From assembly GCA_021469345.1 (NCBI GenBank), contig GCA_021469345.1_3049.1: a DNA stretch of 64,000 bases; one strand, 5' to 3'. Both the position numbers and the translations under genes were made by a program. Positions 1-50,871 of the stretch are shown here, piece after piece. Origin of the DNA: a phage. The notes under the pieces are model-generated. The model had not been told where the DNA came from. It searched no databases and saw only the letters and a program-made list of their open reading frames with translations. Each line of letters begins with the position of its first letter. The first letter of the stretch is position 1.

Positions 1-9
1 GAGATATTT

Positions 10-675
10 ATGTTCCATTACACTTATAAAATAACAAATAAAATTAATAATAAAATTTATATTGGTGTGCATTCTACCGAAAATTTAGATGATGGATATA
101 TGGGTTCTGGTAAATTATTAAAAAGAGCTCAAGATAAGTATGGTATAGAAAATTTTTCTAAAGAAATATTAGAGTATTTTGATGATAAAGAATCTATGCT
201 TGAAGCCGAGAAAAATATTGTCACAGAAGAGTTTTTAAATAGACCAGATGTGTATAATTTAAAACTTGGCGGTGAAGGTGGATGGGACCATATAAATATT
301 CCTGGGATGCTAAACCAGAAGAAAGACGCTAGTTTAAAAGGAGCTAAATCGTTTAAGTCACGTTTTAAAAATGATATTTTACTTCAAGAAAAATATCGTA
401 AACATGGTTCAAATGTATTTAAACGCTTGTGGTCAACTCCTGAATACAGGGAAAAATTTTTAAATAATAGCAGATTTTTAAATAAGCATCATACTCCTGA
501 AACTATTAATAAAATGAAAGAATCTCACGCCAGAAATAAACATCAACAGGGCGAAAAGAATTCCCAATTTGGTATGATGTGGATTCATTCATTAGATGAA
601 AAAGTTTCTAAACGTATTAAGAAAACTGACCCAATTCCAGAAGGATGGCTTAAAGGTCGAAAAATGAAATTTTAA
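10..675 (+). CDS. segB: GIY-YIG homing endonuclease, SegB-like (221 aa)
   Basis: ORF track; KIYIG...YMGSG and NLKLGGEGG motifs; sits directly upstream of tRNA gene as in T4. Confidence 0.8.
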   Translation: MFHYTYKITNKINNKIYIGVHSTENLDDGYMGSGKLLKRAQDKYGIENFSKEILEYFDDKESMLEAEKNIVTEEFLNRPDVYNLKLGGEGGWDHINIPGMLNQKKDASLKGAKSFKSRFKNDILLQEKYRKHGSNVFKRLWSTPEYREKFLNNSRFLNKHHTPETINKMKESHARNKHQQGEKNSQFGMMWIHSLDEKVSKRIKKTDPIPEGWLKGRKMKF

Positions 676-678
676 TTA

Positions 679-754
679 CGGGGCATAGCTCAGAAGGAAG
701 AGCAAGGACCTTCTAAGTCCTGGGTCGTAGGTTCGATCCCTACTGCCTCGACCA
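679..754 (+). tRNA. tRNA-Arg (anticodon UCU), CCA encoded
   Basis: Hand-folded cloverleaf: acceptor 679-685/744-750, D stem 688-691/700-703, anticodon stem 705-709/717-721 with loop CTTCTAA (TCT at 712-714), T stem 727-731/739-743 with TTCGATC loop, discriminator A751, CCA 752-754. Confidence 0.88.
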
Positions 755-755
755 G

Positions 756-1065
756 ACAAGAAGCCGGGTCGCTACCGGTAAGTCGTCGGACTGATGTTCC
801 CTGAGTAAGGACTGGTCTTAATAAATCTTTACGATTTGTTAATACCCCCTTACATCACAACAGAAACGGCGCACCGAATTATCGATTCGAGGAAATATCT
901 TTGCCGTAAGCCGAGTAGCGTTTTTGACGGAACGTTCGGATATGGTCGAGATATGGCCTTTTAAAAATATTGAGTAGCGTCAACTGCTTAATAACCGGGT
1001 TCGAATCCCGGCGTTTCGTACAAACACTTGCCTTAGCAGGTGGAACCCCGACAAGGTTGCCGCAA
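756..1065 (+). ncRNA. candidate stable small RNA(s), comparable to T4 tRNA-cluster species 1/2 RNAs
   Basis: about 310 bp with no credible ORF between tRNA-Arg and a terminator; relatively GC-rich; tRNA-like T-arm CCGGGTTCGAATCCCGG at 995-1011; boundaries not determinable by eye. Confidence 0.3.
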
Positions 1066-1070
1066 GGCTT

Positions 1071-1099
1071 AGCCCCAGCCGAAAGGTTGGGGCTTTTTG
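1071..1099 (+). terminator. rho-independent terminator (10-bp stem, GAAA loop, T-run)
   Basis: AGCCCCAGCC-GAAA-GGTTGGGGCT followed by TTTT. Confidence 0.7.
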
Positions 1100-1100
1100 G

Positions 1101-1108
1101 TATAAATA
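1101..1108 (+). promoter_or_regulatory. T4-type late promoter core TATAAATA
   Basis: exact TATAAATA about 28 nt upstream of ATG 1137. Confidence 0.5.
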
Positions 1109-1136
1109 GATGAGTTAATTAACACAGGAAATAATA

Positions 1137-1418
1137 ATGAAAACTTATGCTCAATTTTTAATGACCGAAGCATCCGCTTCAGATGTTCGCGCTGTAGCAA
1201 CTGCTGCTATTAAAGCTGGTAAATATTCTTATAAAGATGCTTCTGACGAATCTCGGTACAAGTTCTATGACGATATGAGAGCTGAAGGCTTTGTGGGTAA
1301 CTATGTTACCACCGCCTGGAAAAGCCTGGTTGCTACTGGTGCGGCTTTCGAAAAACCTTCTGGTAAACCTGCTCCTAAGGCTGACCCTAAAGCAGCACAA
1401 GAAAAAAAATATTGCTAA
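1137..1418 (+). CDS. internal-protein-like protein with capsid-targeting-like N-terminus (MKTYAQFLMTE); probably the 5' part of a frameshift-interrupted gene
   Basis: ATG with AGGAA SD; N-terminus resembles T4 internal-protein CTS MKTYQEFIAE; ends just after an A8 run (1402-1409). Confidence 0.55.
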   Translation: MKTYAQFLMTEASASDVRAVATAAIKAGKYSYKDASDESRYKFYDDMRAEGFVGNYVTTAWKSLVATGAAFEKPSGKPAPKADPKAAQEKKYC

Positions 1419-1419
1419 A

Positions 1420-1599
1420 GGAATTATCTCTAGGTATGAAGCAATTCTTAAAGAACTTTTGATAATTAAGACCGAAGGCCAGAAACTTGCACGTGCTTAT
1501 AGTTTCAAAGATAATCCACATGCTCATGACCTAGAGTATGTTGAAGACCTCCAAAAAATCATCAAAGACCGCATTTGGTCTGCTAAACAAATCAAATAA
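1420..1599 (+). other. 60-codon open frame with no start codon, likely the 3' continuation of the 1137 gene in the +1 frame
   Basis: frame open from 1291 to 1599 with no ATG after 1418; junction at the A8 tract; terminator follows at 1607. Confidence 0.45.
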
Positions 1600-1606
1600 C
1601 ATTCTT

Positions 1607-1634
1607 AGCCCTAGCCGAAAGGTTGGGGCTTTTT
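1607..1634 (+). terminator. rho-independent terminator, near-identical copy of 1071-1099
   Basis: AGCCCTAGCC-GAAA-GGTTGGGGCT + TTTT; one mismatch versus first copy. Confidence 0.7.
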
Positions 1635-1748
1635 GGTATCTAGGCCTTTCCAGACCTCTCTAGGCATCATTTAGTTTATACCCTTTATAATATATTATCC
1701 TATCTTTTAATTGCCCCTCCCTGCCCCAGAATTCCCCAAAACTTTTTA

Positions 1749-1844
1749 AAAAATTTTTTCACAAAACTGTTTACATCCCTGTTCTTCTATGGTACTATAC
1801 AACTATCAACTACTGATACAGAAAACAACTTGGAGAACGAAATG
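1749..1844 (+). repeat. repeated early promoter-leader cassette (copy A)
   Basis: about 60-90 bp shared with 43728-43813 and 62911-63005, partly with 16410-16500 and 19040-19110. Confidence 0.6.
1769..1800 (+). promoter_or_regulatory. T4-type early promoter
   Basis: GTTTAC at 1769-1774, 18-nt spacer, TACTAT -10, A/T-rich upstream. Confidence 0.7.
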
Positions 1845-6158: not shown

Positions 6159-6632
6159 ATGAAAACATATCAAGAATTTATTACTGAAGCAGCTATTAAT
6201 TCTCAAATTATTGCTGAATCTTTTACTGATCTTTTGAAATTTAAAAAAGGCCAAAAAATCACTGCTGTATTGGATGATGGTACAGAAGTTGAGATGGATG
6301 TACAAGGATATAATTATGCAGTAGATGGAAAACTGTATAATAAATCTCATGCTAAATTTGATTCATTTGACGACTTTGTTAATACAGTTGAAGATGAAAA
6401 AACTCGTCGATCCATTGCAACTGGTGATGCTAAGGTTCTTATGGCACATGGTCATGAACGCATTCGCGCTAAACAGAATAAAATGGGTGAAGATAATTTT
6501 GCATTAGTTGGTTATCAATCTGGTAAACAAACCTATGGTTATCAGCGTACTGCTACCATGTATAATAAAAATGGTAAAATTGCCTTTGTGAATAGTAAGG
6601 GTTCTATTCAGTACGTTAAATCGTTCAAATAA
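6159..6632 (+). CDS. internal protein (ipIII-like) with capsid targeting sequence MKTYQEFITEA
   Basis: N-terminus matches T4 internal-protein CTS including gp21-type I-x-E cleavage context; position after e. Confidence 0.65.
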   Translation: MKTYQEFITEAAINSQIIAESFTDLLKFKKGQKITAVLDDGTEVEMDVQGYNYAVDGKLYNKSHAKFDSFDDFVNTVEDEKTRRSIATGDAKVLMAHGHERIRAKQNKMGEDNFALVGYQSGKQTYGYQRTATMYNKNGKIAFVNSKGSIQYVKSFK

Positions 6633-6785: not shown

Positions 6786-7325
6786 ATGAGAACATTTTTA
6801 ACTGGTCCTTATCTATCCCTGATGAATGCTTTTACACACCATTCTGATGCTAGAGTAGAAGAAATTTGTAAAAACGATTATATCCCACCATTTGAAGATT
6901 TACTTAAAGAGTATTGTACACTTCGTATAGATGGTGGACGTCAATCTGGTAAATCAATTGCTGTGACTAATTTTGCTGCTAATTGGTTGTATGATGGCGG
7001 AACAGTTATTGTTCTTTCTAATACTTCAGCTTACGCTAAAATTTCTGCAAATAACATTAAAAAGGAATTTTCGCGTTATTCTAATGATGATATACGTTTT
7101 CGTTTATTTACTGATTCTGTGCGTAGTTTTATTGGTAATAAAGGAAGCAAGTTCAGAGGTTTATCGCTTTCGCGAATTTTGTATATAATTGACGAGCCTG
7201 TCAAATCTCCTGATATGGATAAGATTTATAGTGTCCATATTGACACTGTACACTACTGCTGTAATAGTAAATGTTGCATTGGTGGTATTACTCGTCCACA
7301 GTTTTTCGTAATCGGAATGCAATGA
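6786..7325 (+). CDS. small P-loop NTPase (Walker A GGRQSGKS, Walker B ILYIIDEP), Cys-rich C-terminus
   Basis: track ORF trimmed to ATG 6786 with GAGAGA SD; motifs read from translation. Confidence 0.6.
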   Translation: MRTFLTGPYLSLMNAFTHHSDARVEEICKNDYIPPFEDLLKEYCTLRIDGGRQSGKSIAVTNFAANWLYDGGTVIVLSNTSAYAKISANNIKKEFSRYSNDDIRFRLFTDSVRSFIGNKGSKFRGLSLSRILYIIDEPVKSPDMDKIYSVHIDTVHYCCNSKCCIGGITRPQFFVIGMQ

Positions 7326-7657
7326 TGACAGACACTCAGCTTTTCGAATATCTTTATTTTTCGCCAAAAACTATTAAAAATAAATTGGTGAATCATTTTG
7401 AAATTTTGGCAAAAATAACATTTTGAGCGAATTTTATCCTAAGCAATACAAATTACAAAAAGGCGTATTCAAAGGATGCAGAGTTTTGTGCACGGCTCCT
7501 AATGCACGGCTAATGAATAAAATTCCATATTTTACCATGGAATTTATTGATGGGCCTTTTAAAGGACTAATCACCCAAAGTTTAATGGCATATGATTCTG
7601 AGCCATTTTTAATTAAAGAACAATCTTGGATAAATTTATTTTCTAATTGAGGTTTAT

Positions 7658-19106: not shown

Positions 19107-19379
19107 ATGAACGCTAAAGATATTTTCAACCTGGTAAATTACAACGATGGTAAATTTAAATCTGAAGCACAAAGCAAGTTCTTTAATGACATCTCAATCG
19201 GAGGTGAAATCACTGTTGATGGAGGACAAATTTACAAATCCCGTTGGAATTGGATCGTTATTATCGATGAGATTGGTATTGTAGAAATTTATAAAAATAC
19301 GAAAATCGTGCATTACACTGGTCTCGTGATACTAACGAACAGTACAAAAAGGATAAAGCATCTAAATTATCTCGTGTAA
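19107..19379 (+). CDS. hypothetical protein; 3' part may be frameshifted into the next ORF
   Basis: ATG with GGAGG SD; -1 frame open from 19295 through 19630 with protein-like composition. Confidence 0.5.
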   Translation: MNAKDIFNLVNYNDGKFKSEAQSKFFNDISIGGEITVDGGQIYKSRWNWIVIIDEIGIVEIYKNTKIVHYTGLVILTNSTKRIKHLNYLV

Positions 19380-19417
19380 CTCAAGAAGATATTGAGTTCA
19401 TCAAGAAAGATATTTTG

Positions 19418-19630
19418 ATGTATGATAACTTAATTGCTGAAGAGCAAGCTGTTATTGATAAATTTGATGAGATTAAAGCTTCTCGTGAAATTCCTGATTT
19501 TATGAAAGAATCAGTAAATGAACGATACACTCTCATTTCAGAGCGTATTGAAACTTACAAAAAGCAAAGAGCTGAACGCCAAAATACTCTTCGGAAGTTT
19601 GAAGAACGGTTAAAGACGGTACTCGCATAA
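19418..19630 (+). CDS. hypothetical protein, possibly the C-terminal part of the 19107 gene
   Basis: first ATG in a frame that is open for 41 codons upstream. Confidence 0.4.
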   Translation: MYDNLIAEEQAVIDKFDEIKASREIPDFMKESVNERYTLISERIETYKKQRAERQNTLRKFEERLKTVLA

Positions 19631-19685
19631 CCGCTTTATACCAAGGATGGTATAATGGTTCTAAGCCCTTTTAACTGAGATTATT

Positions 19686-19925
19686 ATGAAACAGTTGATA
19701 ATTAAAAGATTGAATTTATTGATATGTTGTTTATGTATAGTAATTGCATATGGTTATTACGCAATTAATGATTATATGCATTATAAAGATTATGATGTTA
19801 CTGTAGTTAAACCCTTACAGGAACTCAAGGAAAGGGGTCTAGTTTATCGTTTATTGCTGTATATGAACTCAAAGACGGTTATAGATTTAGCGAATATATT
19901 TCGCCAGAGATGTATTCTTCAATAG
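19686..19925 (+). CDS. hypothetical small membrane protein
   Basis: ORF track; hydrophobic N-terminus. Confidence 0.35.
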   Translation: MKQLIIKRLNLLICCLCIVIAYGYYAINDYMHYKDYDVTVVKPLQELKERGLVYRLLLYMNSKTVIDLANIFRQRCILQ

Positions 19926-20099
19926 AAAAAGGTGATAATATTACTGTAAGTTTACGTCCTTTCGACGTAAAACAGACATTGTTTGATAATATTGTTTGGT
20001 TCTTTGGAATGGTATTAGTTCAATCTATATGTGGTGCTTATATAGTCTGTTCCATCTTATTCTGTATATTTAGTAAAATTGAAATTGAGTGAGGAAAAT

Positions 20100-20987
20100 A
20101 TGTCAGTAGTAATTAATAATGTCAATGCAGTAATTAAATCTTTAGTTAATAAAAAATCAAATGAATGGACTGTACTTCAACACGACGAGTCAGATAAATT
20201 TTTTCATAAATTTAACCCAGTACTAAATTTAAATGTTATTGATAAAGATGTTCACGCCGAAATTTTAGATAAGTTTAAAGTTGATATTGGATTTGGATTA
20301 GAAAAACATTTACAACGAACAAACGGGTCTGGAATGCTTTTATCTAATCGCATTATGAAAGCCCTTAATAAAATTGGAGCATTGTCTCGTATTAACGCGA
20401 GTGAAATCCTTCGTAATTATAATAAAGGATATGACCTTTATGGTCGACTAATGCCGAAATTATCATTTGACCAAATGATCGCAGATTTGTGGGAAAATCA
20501 ACGACGATTATTAGCATTAGGCGCTCGATTGGCTAAAGGTCTAGATAAACAAATGATTTTTAAAACTAATAATACAGAAGACCTTAAATGCTTTAAATTT
20601 AGCACTCGTGGAGATGATTATTACGTCAGAGCTCACTCTACAGATTATGCTAATATGGGTCATCATCTCTGTTTAGCTTTTGAAGTTTTAAAAGAAGCCG
20701 GAACATTAGAATATGTGTCTGGTGCAAAATGCCCTATTGGTTCAAGTTGTATTTTAATTTATCGCCCGGATGAATCCAGTTCAACTAAATTGCCTACAAA
20801 ACCTGTACCAGTTCGCAGTAACGAAAAACATTCTGAACAAATTGATTATTTTAATAAGCAAATTGAAGAGCTGAATATTTCTATTCAACAATATGACGAT
20901 GAAATTTTCAGACTATCTGGACTGAGTAGTAAAGCTAAATCTGAGCGTGAAAAGTTAATTAAAATTGTTGATTTACTTAAATCTTAA
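20100..20987 (+). CDS. hypothetical protein, first of a tandem array with C-terminal coiled coil
   Basis: trimmed to ATG 20100 with GAGGAA SD; C-terminal coiled-coil tail. Confidence 0.6.
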   Translation: MSVVINNVNAVIKSLVNKKSNEWTVLQHDESDKFFHKFNPVLNLNVIDKDVHAEILDKFKVDIGFGLEKHLQRTNGSGMLLSNRIMKALNKIGALSRINASEILRNYNKGYDLYGRLMPKLSFDQMIADLWENQRRLLALGARLAKGLDKQMIFKTNNTEDLKCFKFSTRGDDYYVRAHSTDYANMGHHLCLAFEVLKEAGTLEYVSGAKCPIGSSCILIYRPDESSSTKLPTKPVPVRSNEKHSEQIDYFNKQIEELNISIQQYDDEIFRLSGLSSKAKSEREKLIKIVDLLKS

Positions 20988-32267: not shown

Positions 32268-32585
32268 ATGACTGATAAACCCGAAATTAATGATGAAGTG
32301 GAAAAGCTTATTTCTTCTATTGAAGAAAAGAACCGTCTTGAAGCAGAAAGAAAAGCAAATAAGTTATTGTCTAAAAACAAACGCGAACTGAACCGTCTTT
32401 ATAAACACGCTCAGATTGCAGCTGAAAACAATAATTTTGCTCAATACGAATATGCTATCAAGAAAAGTCGGGATATTCTAAAACAGCCATATAATGATGA
32501 ACTCATTAGTATTCTTTGGAAGACTACTAGATCACAGATTGAGGATATGATTGATGCTTACACACGTAAAATTCAAGCGTCTTAA
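32268..32585 (+). CDS. hypothetical coiled-coil protein
   Basis: ORF track. Confidence 0.5.
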   Translation: MTDKPEINDEVEKLISSIEEKNRLEAERKANKLLSKNKRELNRLYKHAQIAAENNNFAQYEYAIKKSRDILKQPYNDELISILWKTTRSQIEDMIDAYTRKIQAS

Positions 32586-32757
32586 AATTAATGCAGGATT
32601 TACTGAATCTTTGAATGGTCATCTTTGTGTGAAAATTTCTGAAAAAGAATACCATGATAGTTCAATTAAAGAAGTTAATCCTCCTATTGTAAGAGCAGAC
32701 CCTAATATGAAAGTGTGGGTTGATTCTTATCAAGTCAAAAAATGGTGGCAACTGTGA
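32554..32757 (+). CDS. hypothetical small protein
   Basis: trimmed to ATG 32554 with GAGGA SD. Confidence 0.35.
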   Translation: MLTHVKFKRLKINAGFTESLNGHLCVKISEKEYHDSSIKEVNPPIVRADPNMKVWVDSYQVKKWWQL

Positions 32758-32933
32758 AAGATGAACACCAGACTTCTGAAATAGATTATAATAAAATTCG
32801 TTCCTCTAGAGAGGAAATGATGAGACGCTTTAAAGAGTCTCATGATAAAGCTAAAGCAGAAGGAACTATAACATATAAGCGCATAAAATTTAGAAGCTCT
32901 AATGAGCCTCTGTATGGTGTATTATGTGGATAG
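32742..32933 (+). CDS. hypothetical small protein
   Basis: ORF track; followed by GGAGC-TTCG-GCTCC hairpin. Confidence 0.4.
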   Translation: MVATVKDEHQTSEIDYNKIRSSREEMMRRFKESHDKAKAEGTITYKRIKFRSSNEPLYGVLCG

Positions 32934-32999: not shown

Positions 33000-34202
33000 A
33001 TGAAAGTATGTATTTTTATGGCTCGAGGTCTTGAAGGTTGCGGTGTAACTAAATTTTCTCTTGAGCAGCGTGATTGGTTTATTAAAAATGGTCATGAAGT
33101 AACTTTGGTTTATGCTAAAGATAAATCATTTACCCGTAATTGCGCGCATGATTATAAATCATTTTCAATTCCGGTTTTATTGGCAAAAGAATACGATAAA
33201 ACACTTAAGCTGGTAAATGATTGTGATATTCTAGTTATCAATTCAGTTCCTGCTACTTCAGTTGAAGAAGACACTATTAATAACTATAAAAAAATTATTG
33301 ATAACATTAAGCCTTCGGTTCGTGTTGTAGTTTATCAGCATGACCATTCTTCTCTTTCTTTGCGTCGAAATTTGGGATTAGAAGAAACTGTTCGTCGAGC
33401 TGATGTTATTTTTAGCCATTCTGATAATGGTGATTTTAATAAAGTTTTAATGAAAGAATGGTATCCGGAAACTGTTTCTTTGTTTGATGATATTGAAGAA
33501 GCACCGACCGTATATAACTTTCAGCCTCCTATGGATATTGCGAAGGTTCGATCAACCTACTGGAAAGATGTTTCTGAAATTAACATGAATATCAACCGTT
33601 GGATTGGTCGTACTACTACATGGAAAGGTTTTTATCAGATGTTTGATTTTCACGAAAAACATCTTAAACCCGCAGGACTAAGTACTATTATGGAAGGTCT
33701 GGAACGTTCTCCAGCGTTCATTCCTATTAAAGAAAAAGGAATTCCATACGAGTATTATCGTCTTCATCAAGTAGACCAAATTAAAATTGCTCCTAATTTG
33801 CCAACGCAAATTCTTGACCGTTATGTAAATAGCGAAATGCTTGAACGCATGAGTAAATCCGGATTTGGTTATCAGTTGAGTAAGTTGGATAAAAAATATC
33901 TACAGCGCTCTTTAGAATATACTCATCTCGAGCTTGGTGCATGTGGAACAATTCCGGTATTTTGGAAATCTACTGGCGAAAATTTAAAATTCCGTGTTGA
34001 TAATACTCCGTTAATTTCACATGATAGCGGTATCGTTTGGTTTGATGAAAATGACATGGAATCAACATTTGAACGTATTAAAGAACTGTCATCTGACCGA
34101 GCTCTTTATGACCGTGAACGTGAAAAAGCATATGAATTTTTGTATCAGCATCAAGATTCAAGCTTCTGCTTTAAAGAACAGTTTGACATTATTACAAAAT
34201 AA
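33000..34202 (+). CDS. agt: DNA alpha-glucosyltransferase (400 aa)
   Basis: translation closely matches T4 alpha-gt as recalled. Confidence 0.95.
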   Translation: MKVCIFMARGLEGCGVTKFSLEQRDWFIKNGHEVTLVYAKDKSFTRNCAHDYKSFSIPVLLAKEYDKTLKLVNDCDILVINSVPATSVEEDTINNYKKIIDNIKPSVRVVVYQHDHSSLSLRRNLGLEETVRRADVIFSHSDNGDFNKVLMKEWYPETVSLFDDIEEAPTVYNFQPPMDIAKVRSTYWKDVSEINMNINRWIGRTTTWKGFYQMFDFHEKHLKPAGLSTIMEGLERSPAFIPIKEKGIPYEYYRLHQVDQIKIAPNLPTQILDRYVNSEMLERMSKSGFGYQLSKLDKKYLQRSLEYTHLELGACGTIPVFWKSTGENLKFRVDNTPLISHDSGIVWFDENDMESTFERIKELSSDRALYDREREKAYEFLYQHQDSSFCFKEQFDIITK

Positions 34203-50706: not shown

Positions 50707-50871
50707 ATGAAAACATTTAAAGAATTTATCAAAGAAGATATGGTCGCTGGAGATTCAGGTGGTAATCCTGAAAATATCTCTACTGGAACAACATCAGGTG
50801 CTGTAGTAAATAAAGGTCCTGAACAGATTCCTAAAAAGAAAAAAGAGGAATCTAAAGAAAAAGAAGAGTAA
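50707..50871 (+). CDS. small protein with capsid-targeting-like N-terminus MKTFKEFIKE (54 aa)
   Basis: ATG 50707; N-terminus resembles internal-protein CTS with I-x-E cleavage context; Lys/Glu-rich tail. Confidence 0.45.
   Translation: MKTFKEFIKEDMVAGDSGGNPENISTGTTSGAVVNKGPEQIPKKKKEESKEKEE

What the first reader, a model, noticed from the sequence alone, without database searches (positions are those of the whole stretch)
1137..1634. Internal-protein-like gene interrupted at an A8 tract and bracketed by duplicated terminators
The ORF at 1137-1418 starts with a capsid-targeting-like sequence and stops right after an eight-A run (1402-1409). The +1 frame continues open for 60 codons (1420-1599) with no start codon and ends at a terminator. 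The overlapping part of that frame upstream of the A-run reads like an out-of-frame translation (Leu-rich), so the junction is at the homopolymer. This is either a genuine frameshift mutation, a homopolymer sequencing error, or slippage that produces two protein forms. The gene is also bracketed by two 36-bp near-identical terminator hairpins (1066-1101 and 1602-1637, one mismatch) and has a TATAAATA late promoter at 1101-1108, making it look like a self-contained late cassette.
Basis: seen in the sequence. Interest (0 to 1): 0.5.

Follow-up and report, generated by a model that had tools for sequence, protein, structure and literature searches.

The report
Slippery A-run breaks injected-protein gene
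A small accessory gene of a T4-like phage, probably coding for a protein packed into the capsid and injected with the DNA, is cut short here by one extra A in a run of seven, and the same run is found one or two bases too long or too short in about 7% of related phage genomes sampled, so it looks like a natural mutational on/off hot spot and not a sequencing mistake.

Summary
ORF 1137-1418 (93 aa) and the +1 frame to 1599 are two halves of one gene. Every intact relative has A7 (GAA AAA AAT) and a single 153-157 aa ORF of family phrog_2280; the window has A8.

The 36-nt direct repeat, a 10-bp terminator hairpin, lies at 1068-1103 and 1604-1639, 2 nt from the stated coordinates. TATAAATA is at 1101-1108. 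T4 has one hairpin and no gene here, so this is a 536-bp cassette.

A8 is unlikely to be an assembly error. A read-level assembly of run SRR17583572 matches window 1-1819 exactly. The same 93-aa product occurs in at least three genomic backgrounds.

The tract varies repeatedly. I verified A8 in nine sequences on at least six flanking haplotypes. A6, A9 and A7+C also occur. About 7% of GenBank copies sampled are out of frame, several from Illumina data. Resetting the tract to A7 restores an intact ORF in all 11 copies tested.

Coding runs of 7 or more are almost absent from the window; the only other is the agt tract shown to be a contingency locus in T2.

Best reading: replication slippage at a hypermutable tract in an internal-protein-like cassette gene. 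This is a new member of known kinds. The protein's function and any adaptive switching are unproven.

The parts
1068..1103 (+). Direct-repeat copy 1. It is the intrinsic terminator hairpin (stem 1071-1080/1085-1094, GAAA loop, U5) that ends the tRNA/rnaD/rnaC cluster. Its last 3 nt overlap the late promoter.
   Evidence: T4 has this same hairpin once, followed directly by the sequence found after copy 2.
1101..1108 (+). T4-type late promoter consensus TATAAATA, 29 nt upstream of the start codon.
   Evidence: A late promoter is annotated at the same place in Yersinia phage fPS-65.
1126..1130 (+). Shine-Dalgarno-like AGGAA, 6 nt before the ATG.
   Evidence: read from the sequence
1137..1418 (+). 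Truncated reading frame (93 aa). It holds the capsid-targeting-like leader (residues 1-11), an N-terminal three-helix domain, a Pro/Lys/Ala linker, then KYC and a stop created by the frameshift.
1402..1409 (+). A8 homopolymer. It is A7 in all intact alleles and is the site of the +1 insertion. It is the longest homopolymer in the 64-kb window.
1408..1599 (+). C-terminal half of the gene, now in the +1 frame (NIAKGIISRYE...SAKQIK*). The frame is intact and is predicted to form a helical hairpin.
1604..1639 (+). Direct-repeat copy 2 (one C>T change that turns a C-G pair into U-G). It is the terminator of the cassette. The sequence after it is the T4 rnaC-e.8 spacer.

Best explanation
The region is a 536-bp gene cassette: late promoter, ribosome-binding site, one gene, and a copy of the rnaC terminator hairpin. 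It is inserted between rnaC and e.8 of a Tequatrovirus (T4-like) genome.

The gene belongs to family phrog_2280. It encodes a 153-aa two-domain helical protein whose N-terminus looks like the capsid-targeting leader of T-even internal proteins. It is therefore most likely packaged into the head and injected (inferred). By analogy with Ip1-3 it may act against a host defence (speculative).

In this genome the gene is out of frame because the A7 tract that encodes Glu-Lys-Asn at the linker/C-domain boundary has gained one A. Translation stops three codons later. The product keeps the leader, the N-domain and the linker. The C-terminal domain sits intact in the +1 frame.

The insertion is a real mutation of the kind made by strand slippage of the replicating polymerase in homopolymers (mechanism inferred from established T4 genetics). 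The tract is a hot spot. Length variants A6, A8 and A9 have arisen many times in independent lineages, and they are recent or reversible, because the downstream frame never decays. The tract therefore behaves like the contingency loci recently described in T2 and T4. Whether switching is adaptive is not shown.
For: One gene, +1 A:
- Alignments and translations show A7 and a single ORF in relatives.
- phrog_2280 spans both halves (E = 5e-52 for the repaired protein).

Cassette:
- T4 has one hairpin and no gene at this site.
- The repeats and terminators are confirmed.
- Some relatives carry a second leader-bearing gene in tandem.

Real, not an artefact:
- The Logan assembly of SRR17583572 is 100% identical to window 1-1819, including A8.
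- The same run is the only source of two other private truncated products of this genome.
- The identical 93-aa product lies on 5 contigs in at least 3 backgrounds.
- A8 in teqhal and A9 in fPS-65 come from Illumina data.

Hot spot:
- A8 is verified in 9 sequences on at least 6 flanking haplotypes; A9 and A7+C also occur.
- A6 products exist in three allele types.
- 3 of 43 unique records and 4 of 60 evenly sampled records are off-length.
- A8 products P0035, P0036 and P0027 are on 19, 9 and 6 contigs; the commonest full-length form listed is on 40.
- Sister phages bov10K1 and bov9_1 differ only at this tract over the 40 kb compared.

Recent or reversible:
- Resetting the tract to A7 gives an intact ORF in all 11 frameshifted copies, 0-3 aa from the nearest A7 allele.

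Tract is exceptional:
- The window has 4 runs of 7 or more against about 70 expected. The only other coding one is the agt tract, which is a proven contingency locus in T2 (bioRxiv 10.1101/2025.10.21.683753).

Domain boundary:
- The AlphaFold model has pLDDT 78.5, with the linker at residues 76-87 and the tract encoding residues 93-95.
Against: - No reads were inspected directly. If SRR17583572 was sequenced on a homopolymer-error-prone platform, both assemblies could share a systematic error.
- One relative (Pu-Krd-SF4) has error-like single-base indels at this site and at two other short runs, one of them in essential gene 4. Some database variants are therefore artefacts.
- This phage carries several other private frameshifts in accessory genes. 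Its A8 may simply be part of general decay and not a switch.
- Packaging, injection and any function of the protein are untested. Fold searches found nothing.
- The leader of this allele ends M-T-E, not the L/I-x-E protease motif.
- Reversion has not been observed.
Confidence: 0.75

Rival explanations
1. Homopolymer sequencing or assembly error: the phage really has A7 and an intact 153-aa gene.
For: - A 7-to-8 miscount is a classic error of pyrosequencing, Ion Torrent and nanopore.
- Pu-Krd-SF4 shows error-like indels at this very site and in essential gene 4.
- bov10K1 and bov9_1 differ only at this tract in the 40 kb compared.
Against: - An independent read-level assembly (Logan, SRR17583572) gives A8 and also reproduces a +T and a -4-nt indel elsewhere in this genome. 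Those are not homopolymer miscounts.
- The same product is found in 4 further assemblies from at least 2 other backgrounds.
- A8 and A9 occur in Illumina-only genomes.
- The window's clear coding frameshifts all lie in accessory genes in the first third of the window (a possible further one is at 32770) and none in the core replication genes. Random errors would not be distributed that way.
Confidence: 0.08
2. One-off, irreversible pseudogenisation: this phage is shedding dispensable genes. The A8 is one such dead-end lesion and has no switching role. The recurrence elsewhere only reflects a high mutation rate plus weak selection.
For: - Other private frameshifts lie in rI.1, nrdC-region and vs-region genes of the same genome.
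- The gene is absent from T4, so it is dispensable there. The T2 tables list no homopolymer of 6 or more inside the gene next to e.8.
- Other disruptions of the gene exist in the databases (P0007, P0052, P0010).
Against: - The tract is conserved as A7 in every intact allele, down to 71% protein identity, although runs of 7 or more are about 17-fold depleted in this genome.
- Out-of-frame copies never show secondary decay.
- Both halves stay under purifying selection in lineages that now carry A8: 8-20 nt differences but only 2-3 aa differences.
- These points fit a reversible state better, but they do not prove it.
Confidence: 0.15
3. Programmed recoding: the A-run is a slippery site. Ribosomal +1 frameshifting, or RNA-polymerase slippage, makes both the short and the full-length protein from the A8 template.
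For: - A +1 slip of tRNA-Lys from the first AAA (1404-1406) to 1405-1407, or loss of one A in the transcript, would restore exactly the wild-type ...QEKNIAKG... sequence (read from the sequence).
- Poly-A runs are known slippage sites (general knowledge).
Against: - In about 93% of the genomes sampled the gene is in frame with A7. The out-of-frame minority includes -1, +1 and +2 states, whereas recoding sites are conserved in one shifted configuration.
- There is no stable RNA structure at or after the tract (z = +0.5), and no Shine-Dalgarno-like stimulator upstream.
- A8 is short for efficient transcriptional slippage (general knowledge).
- Low-level leaky restoration cannot be excluded.
Confidence: 0.04

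Closest known systems
Phage contingency loci (homopolymer tracts in T2 agt and T4 rIIA; Gomez, Barrick and Waters, bioRxiv 10.1101/2025.10.21.683753)
   Same: - A homopolymer A-run lies inside a non-essential T-even gene connected with host defence.
- +/-1 length changes switch the reading frame.
- The downstream frame is kept.
- The window's own agt carries the homologous tract, and that is the only other coding run of 7 or more in the window.
   Different: - That work measured mutation and reversion rates within laboratory populations of T2, T4 and T6. T4 lacks this gene, and the T2 tables I searched list no such tract.
- Here the evidence is comparative: polymorphism among natural isolates and metagenomic contigs.
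- Reversibility and a fitness trade-off are inferred, not measured.
- The short state here keeps a complete N-terminal domain and is not an obvious null.
T-even internal proteins Ip1, Ip2, Ip3 and the polymorphic IP loci (Repoila et al. 1994, as cited in PMC3012670, PMC12373910 and PMC2839356)
   Same: - A conserved leader of about 11 residues (MKTY..F...E|A).
- A small non-essential gene with its own late promoter.
- Conserved regulatory blocks on both sides.
- Presence/absence and tandem-cassette polymorphism between phages.
   Different: - The cassette sits between rnaC and e.8, not in either of the two described IP loci (ipI; ipII/ipIII). PMC2839356 states that IP genes are absent elsewhere.
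- There is no sequence or fold similarity to Ip1-3 beyond the leader.
- Packaging, cleavage and target are untested.
- The leader of this allele ends M-T-E.
PeSL mobile regulatory cassettes of RB49/phi1 (Arbiol et al. 2010, PMC2839356)
   Same: - An ORFan is flanked on both sides by a conserved G/C-stem stem-loop terminator plus a promoter.
- A related genome carries a single hybrid element in place of the cassette, as expected from recombination between the flanking repeats.
   Different: - The promoter here is a T4 late promoter, not a sigma-70-like early promoter.
- The repeated unit is only the 36-nt terminator.
- No mini-circle was tested.
Streisinger slippage hot spots in T4 rII and lysozyme genes (classical genetics; own knowledge)
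   Same: Single-base additions and deletions concentrate in runs of A.
   Different: Those were laboratory mutants. Here the variants are fixed in field isolates at about 7% frequency in the samples examined.

Membership tests
phrog_2280 (uncharacterised T4-like phage protein family) | Significant full-length match to the family profile | tested here: met
   Repaired protein E = 5.1e-52 over profile 1-172 of 178. ORF1 matches 1-90 and the downstream frame 96-172.
T-even internal proteins (IP) | N-terminal capsid-targeting leader of about 10-11 residues (MKTYQEFIAE-like) | tested here: met
   MKTYAQFLMTE compared with MKTYQEFITEA of the window's phrog_3155 internal virion protein. There is a weak hit of residues 1-43 to phrog_7857 'internal virion protein' (E = 0.05). 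The leader-like start is kept in distant family members P0050, P0051, P0053 and P0055.
T-even internal proteins (IP) | Prohead-protease site (L/I)-x-E at the end of the leader (own knowledge of gp21 specificity) | tested here: inconclusive
   This allele has L-M-T-E|A, with M at position -3. The 152- and 157-aa alleles have canonical L-N-E|A, and the 157-aa forms have it twice.
T-even internal proteins (IP) | Packaged in the head and injected with the DNA | not testable with these tools
   Needs virion proteomics or injection assays.
T-even internal proteins (IP) | Located in one of the two polymorphic IP loci (ipI; ipII-ipIII) | tested here: not met
   The gene lies between rnaC and e.8. It shares the cassette logic of those loci, with flanking conserved blocks and tandem leader-bearing genes in some phages.
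Contingency locus (simple-sequence-repeat phase variation) | Simple repeat inside the coding sequence whose length sets the reading frame | tested here: met
   A7 is in frame. A6, A8 and A9 are out of frame.
Contingency locus (simple-sequence-repeat phase variation) | Tract-length polymorphism among otherwise near-identical genomes, arising independently | tested here: met
   bov10K1 and bov9_1 differ only at the tract in the 40 kb compared. A8 occurs on at least 6 flanking haplotypes. 3 of 43 and 4 of 60 records are off-length.
Contingency locus (simple-sequence-repeat phase variation) | OFF variants keep the rest of the gene intact (reversible state) | tested here: met
   All 11 frameshifted copies give a full-length ORF after the tract is reset.
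Contingency locus (simple-sequence-repeat phase variation) | Measured high, reversible switching rate and a phenotype under alternating selection | not testable with these tools
   Needs fluctuation or reversion assays and host panels.
Programmed ribosomal frameshift / transcriptional slippage gene | Shifted configuration conserved among homologues | tested here: not met
   The in-frame A7 is the majority state, about 93% of sampled records.
Programmed ribosomal frameshift / transcriptional slippage gene | Stimulatory RNA structure or upstream Shine-Dalgarno-like element | tested here: not met
   The fold of 1385-1480 is no better than shuffles (z = +0.51). No SD-like motif precedes the run.
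PeSL-type mobile regulatory cassette | ORFan flanked by repeated promoter plus stem-loop elements, with relatives carrying a single element instead | tested here: met
   A 36-nt repeat lies on both sides, and T4 has one copy and no gene. The promoter type differs (late, not sigma-70-like early), so this is an analogue, not a homologue.

The most novel reading that the evidence does not exclude
The A7 tract is maintained by selection as a phase-variable switch in a third, previously unlisted internal-protein cassette locus (rnaC/e.8) of T-even phages. Replication slippage continually produces progeny that inject either the two-domain protein or an N-domain-only form (or none). This hedges bets between hosts whose defence is blocked by the full protein and hosts that sense or are insensitive to its C-terminal domain. 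It would be the first contingency locus shown to act on an injected virion protein, with its footprint visible in natural isolates.
Probability: 0.25. Interest if true: 0.7.

Novelty: new member of a known kind. Interest (0 to 1): 0.45.

Why it matters
If the tract is a true switch, T-even phage stocks are mixtures that differ in the proteins they inject. That bears on host-range tests, on phage-therapy preparations, and on how anti-defence genes are scored as present or absent in genome surveys. Annotation pipelines currently split this gene into one or two 'hypothetical proteins' in roughly one genome in fifteen of those sampled.

The locus also offers a natural test case for the 2025 proposal that phages use contingency loci. 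It adds a candidate third internal-protein locus whose product has no assigned target.

If it is only a mutational hot spot in a dispensable gene, the practical lesson is narrower. An A8, A6 or A9 call here should not be 'corrected' as a sequencing error without looking at the reads.

Tried and rejected
- tblastn with the 20-aa junction peptide ASGKPAPKADPKAAQEKKYC, meant to list all A8 copies, found nothing. I did not establish why; low-complexity masking is one possibility.
- An exact-pattern scan of IMG/VR for the tract with variable length found only 2 contigs, both A7. That collection gave no frequency estimate.
- The DNA-level indel scan of the window against relatives was too noisy in divergent stretches. 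I replaced it with a tblastn frame-switch scan and a filtered indel list.
- Pfam gave no family.
- Rfam found only the tRNA; rnaC and rnaD have no model.
- Foldseek against the PDB found nothing below E = 0.16. Against BFVD it found only uncharacterised family members. The fold therefore gave no functional clue.
- The profile search of 1.84 billion representatives gave only 10 hits, all phage ORFans.
- Repoila et al. 1994 is not held in the library, so its content is cited through later papers and from memory.
- The supplementary tables of the contingency-locus preprint do not cover this gene. T4 has nothing between e.8 and tRNA-Arg, and the T2 tables list no homopolymer of 6 or more inside the gene next to e.8.
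- I considered that ORF2 might be an independent gene and rejected it. It has no ATG or ribosome-binding site, and it is always fused in frame with ORF1 when the tract is A7.

Full report
**Context.** The window is a Tequatrovirus (T4-like) genome read on the strand opposite to the T4 map. It opens in a segB-like homing-endonuclease gene (10-675). This is followed by tRNA-Arg (679-754) and the region that corresponds to rnaD and rnaC in RB27 and T4. The finding lies between rnaC and e.8.

**The observation.**
- ORF 1137-1418 (93 aa) ends three codons after a run of eight A at 1402-1409.
- The +1 frame stays open to 1599, has no ATG, and reads as Leu-rich nonsense upstream of the run.
- PHROG family phrog_2280 matches ORF1 to profile positions 1-90 and the downstream frame to positions 96-172. 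The repaired 153-aa protein matches end to end (E = 5e-52).
- Alignment with RB27, vB_Eco-B1.1, G8 and SP21535 shows one difference of length inside the gene: A8 in the window against A7 in the relatives. All four relatives have a single 152-153 aa ORF.
- The repaired window protein is identical to that of phages G8 and Pu-Krd-SF3.

**The cassette.**
- The direct repeat is 36 nt with one mismatch, at 1068-1103 and 1604-1639. No such match is expected by chance.
- Each copy is a 10-bp GAAA-loop hairpin followed by U5, at -20.6 and -18.3 kcal/mol. The single mismatch converts a C-G pair into U-G.
- TATAAATA at 1101-1108 overlaps the last 3 nt of copy 1. AGGAA at 1126-1130 serves as ribosome-binding site.
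- T4 has nothing between rnaC and e.8 except one copy of the hairpin. It is joined on the left to the sequence upstream of copy 1 and on the right to the sequence downstream of copy 2.
- The window therefore carries a 536-bp insertion bounded by a duplicated terminator. This is the footprint expected from recombination between stem-loop repeats, as described for PeSL cassettes (PMC2839356).
- In Pu-Krd-SF3, fPS-65 and PhAPEC2 a second gene with the same kind of leader (MKTYAEFLTEA..., 188 aa in SF3) follows in tandem.

**Is the extra A real?** Three lines of evidence say it is.
- The exact 93-aa product is encoded on five public contigs. One is a Logan read-level assembly of run SRR17583572 and is 100% identical to window 1-1819, including A8. 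Three others (GCA_053820905.1, SRR30543731, SRR32363265) share a second genomic background, 95% identical in the flanks. SRR31605624 is a third background, 93% identical.
- The window has other private indels in accessory genes. One is a +T in rI.1 at 12197, which none of the closest of 503 matching phage records shares. Another is a 4-nt deletion at 19302, which none of the closest of 741 matching records shares. The truncated products of both are again found only in the Logan assembly of SRR17583572. Two assemblies of that sample therefore agree on lesions that are not homopolymer miscounts.
- A tblastn frame-switch scan and a filtered indel scan against phage bov9_1 place the clear coding frameshifts of the window in the accessory region 1-21 kb, with one further possible case at 32770. 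None falls in the core replication genes. Random sequencing error would not respect essentiality.
- I could not inspect reads or learn the sequencing platform of the run.

**The tract is a recurrent hot spot.**
- The gene is present in 512 records of the phage collection, 470 at full length. Alleles range from 71% to 100% protein identity and include a Mosigvirus.
- Every intact allele examined has the same G-A7-T tract, while the flanking third codon positions vary.
- I verified A8 by sequence in the window, FJ1, bov10K1, T4_ev240, ECO07P3, teqhal, G28, PYps55T and AUBRB02. These lie on at least six different flanking haplotypes and two N-terminal allele types.
- fPS-65 has A9. Pu-Krd-SF4 has A7 followed by an extra C.
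- A6 products (...QEKISLKELS... or ...QEKILLKELS...) exist in three allele types: SfPhi01 and vB_Eco_F26, the window-type allele, and the Mosigvirus type.
- In the window-type allele group, 3 of 43 unique GenBank records are off-length.
- In an evenly spaced sample of 60 of the 333 records of the commonest allele group, 4 are off-length: A6 twice, A8 once and A9 once. That is about 7% in both groups.
- In the 15-billion-protein collection the A8-truncated products P0035, P0036 and P0027 sit on 19, 9 and 6 contigs. The commonest full-length sequence listed sits on 40.
- teqhal (A8) and fPS-65 (A9) were sequenced on Illumina instruments, the latter at more than 200-fold coverage (PMC7552041 and PMC7917993).
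- bov10K1 and bov9_1 are identical over the 40 kb compared except for this one base.
- Some database variants are surely artefacts. Pu-Krd-SF4 differs from its sister SF3 by three single-base indels next to short runs, one of them in essential gene 4.

**The out-of-frame state is young or reversible.** Resetting the tract to A7 gives an intact, full-length ORF in all 11 frameshifted copies. Each is 0-3 amino acids from the nearest A7 allele, even where 8-20 nucleotides differ. Both halves are therefore under purifying selection in lineages that currently carry A8 or A9.

**The tract is exceptional for this genome.** The window holds 4 homopolymers of 7 or more bases, where a first-order Markov model expects about 70. 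It holds 1 of 8 or more where about 26 are expected. Two of the four are terminator T-tracts. The only other coding one is A7 at 33288-33294, nt 289-295 of the alpha-glucosyltransferase gene. That is the tract (A9 in T2) that Gomez, Barrick and Waters showed to be a reversible contingency locus. The same preprint reports a mean variant frequency of about 3e-4 at runs of 6 or more in T2 (bioRxiv 10.1101/2025.10.21.683753). That study does not cover the present gene.

**The protein.**
- There is no Pfam family.
- An AlphaFold model of the 95%-identical P0001 (pLDDT 78.5) gives a three-helix N-domain (residues 4-71), a low-confidence Pro/Lys/Ala linker (76-87) and a C-terminal helical hairpin (88-154). 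The tract encodes residues 93-95, at the linker/C-domain boundary. The A8 product is therefore leader plus N-domain plus linker.
- Distant relatives keep the leader-like start and the N-domain but carry other C-termini. Klebsiella-phage hits cover only the N-domain. The short form could therefore be functional.
- Foldseek found nothing informative.
- The leader MKTYAQFLMTE|A resembles that of the window's bona fide internal virion protein gene at 6159-6632 (phrog_3155). T-even internal proteins share only such a leader (PMC3012670). Ip1, Ip2 and Ip3 each inhibit a different GmrSD type IV restriction enzyme (PMC12373910). An injected anti-defence role is thus a reasonable inference, not a result.
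- The literature describes two IP loci and states that IP genes are absent elsewhere (PMC2839356). The rnaC/e.8 site would be a third.

**Programmed recoding.** A +1 slip of tRNA-Lys on the first AAA, or loss of one A in the transcript, would regenerate the exact wild-type sequence. Some leaky full-length product is therefore conceivable. But the in-frame A7 is the majority state, the minority includes -1, +1 and +2 forms, and no RNA structure or Shine-Dalgarno-like stimulator accompanies the run. I rate programmed recoding as unlikely.

**Verdict.** This is a real single-base expansion, by replication slippage (inferred mechanism), of a hypermutable A7 tract in an internal-protein-like cassette gene. 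The window's copy is in the truncated state. The site is a new member of two known kinds: T-even IP-type cassettes and phage contingency loci. The population-level footprint, about 7% of the sampled genomes off-length with no decay, is the part worth following up.

Noticed in passing
window 12041-12205 (indel at 12197): rI.1 is truncated to 54 aa (70 aa in bov9_1) by an extra T after an A5 run. None of the closest of 503 matching phage records has the extra base. The truncated product is found only in the Logan assembly of SRR17583572.
   Followed up: partly
window 19107-20092 (indels at 19302, 19811, 20082): Two nrdC-region genes are split. A private 4-nt deletion splits one (ORFs 19107-19379 and 19415-19630). 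Two 1-nt deletions split the other (ORFs 19686-19925 and 19910-20092). The closest of 741 matching records are 5-6 nt longer over this stretch. The 90-aa product is again found only in SRR17583572.
   Followed up: partly
window 7271-7650 (near 7414) and 32551-32933 (near 32770): Two further possible frameshifts relative to phage bov9_1. A 108-aa gene of the vs region is split into ORFs 7271-7426 and 7423-7650. A 1-nt deficit lies between gene 47 and agt. I did not check whether these are unique to this genome.
   Followed up: no
window 33288-33294 (agt, 33000-34202): An A7 run at nt 289-295 of the alpha-glucosyltransferase gene. It is homologous to the A9 tract at nt 288-296 of T2 agt, shown experimentally to be a contingency locus. 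It is the only other coding homopolymer of 7 or more in the window. Runs of 7 or more are about 17-fold depleted overall (4 observed, about 70 expected).
   Followed up: partly
window 6159-6632: A bona fide internal virion protein gene (157 aa, phrog_3155, E = 6e-102) with leader MKTYQEFITEA. It has the same length (474 nt) as the gene labelled ipIV in T2.
   Followed up: partly
window 50707-50871: A 54-aa ORF in the replication-gene region starts with a capsid-targeting-like MKTFKEFIKED. It belongs to phrog_1823 (unknown function). Its tail is Lys/Glu-rich.
   Followed up: no
L016 (Pu-Krd-SF3) 20356-20922; also fPS-65 (L018) and PhAPEC2 (L022): A second leader-bearing gene (MKTYAEFLTEAAKLPSE..., 188 aa in SF3) follows the cassette in some relatives, with its own different terminator hairpin. 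The rnaC/e.8 site therefore holds tandem internal-protein-like cassettes.
   Followed up: partly
proteins P0009 and P0010: Database chimeras. P0010 joins the first 31 residues after the leader Met to a different, Nudix-like-looking sequence (not tested), perhaps through a deletion towards e.1. P0009 carries another N-terminus (Pfam PF26894) joined to the last 31 residues of this protein. Both suggest module shuffling around the gene.
   Followed up: no
L015 against L016 (Pu-Krd-SF4 against SF3): The sister genomes differ by three single-base indels next to short homopolymers over 40 kb. One truncates the essential head-completion gene 4. SF4 therefore looks like an error-prone assembly and should not be counted as biological tract variation.
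   Followed up: yes
window 679-754: The tRNA-Arg(UCU) of the window matches the G8-type sequence (98.8%) but aligns poorly with the T4/SF3 tRNA-Arg at the same position. Two different tRNA-Arg genes therefore alternate at this site.
   Followed up: no
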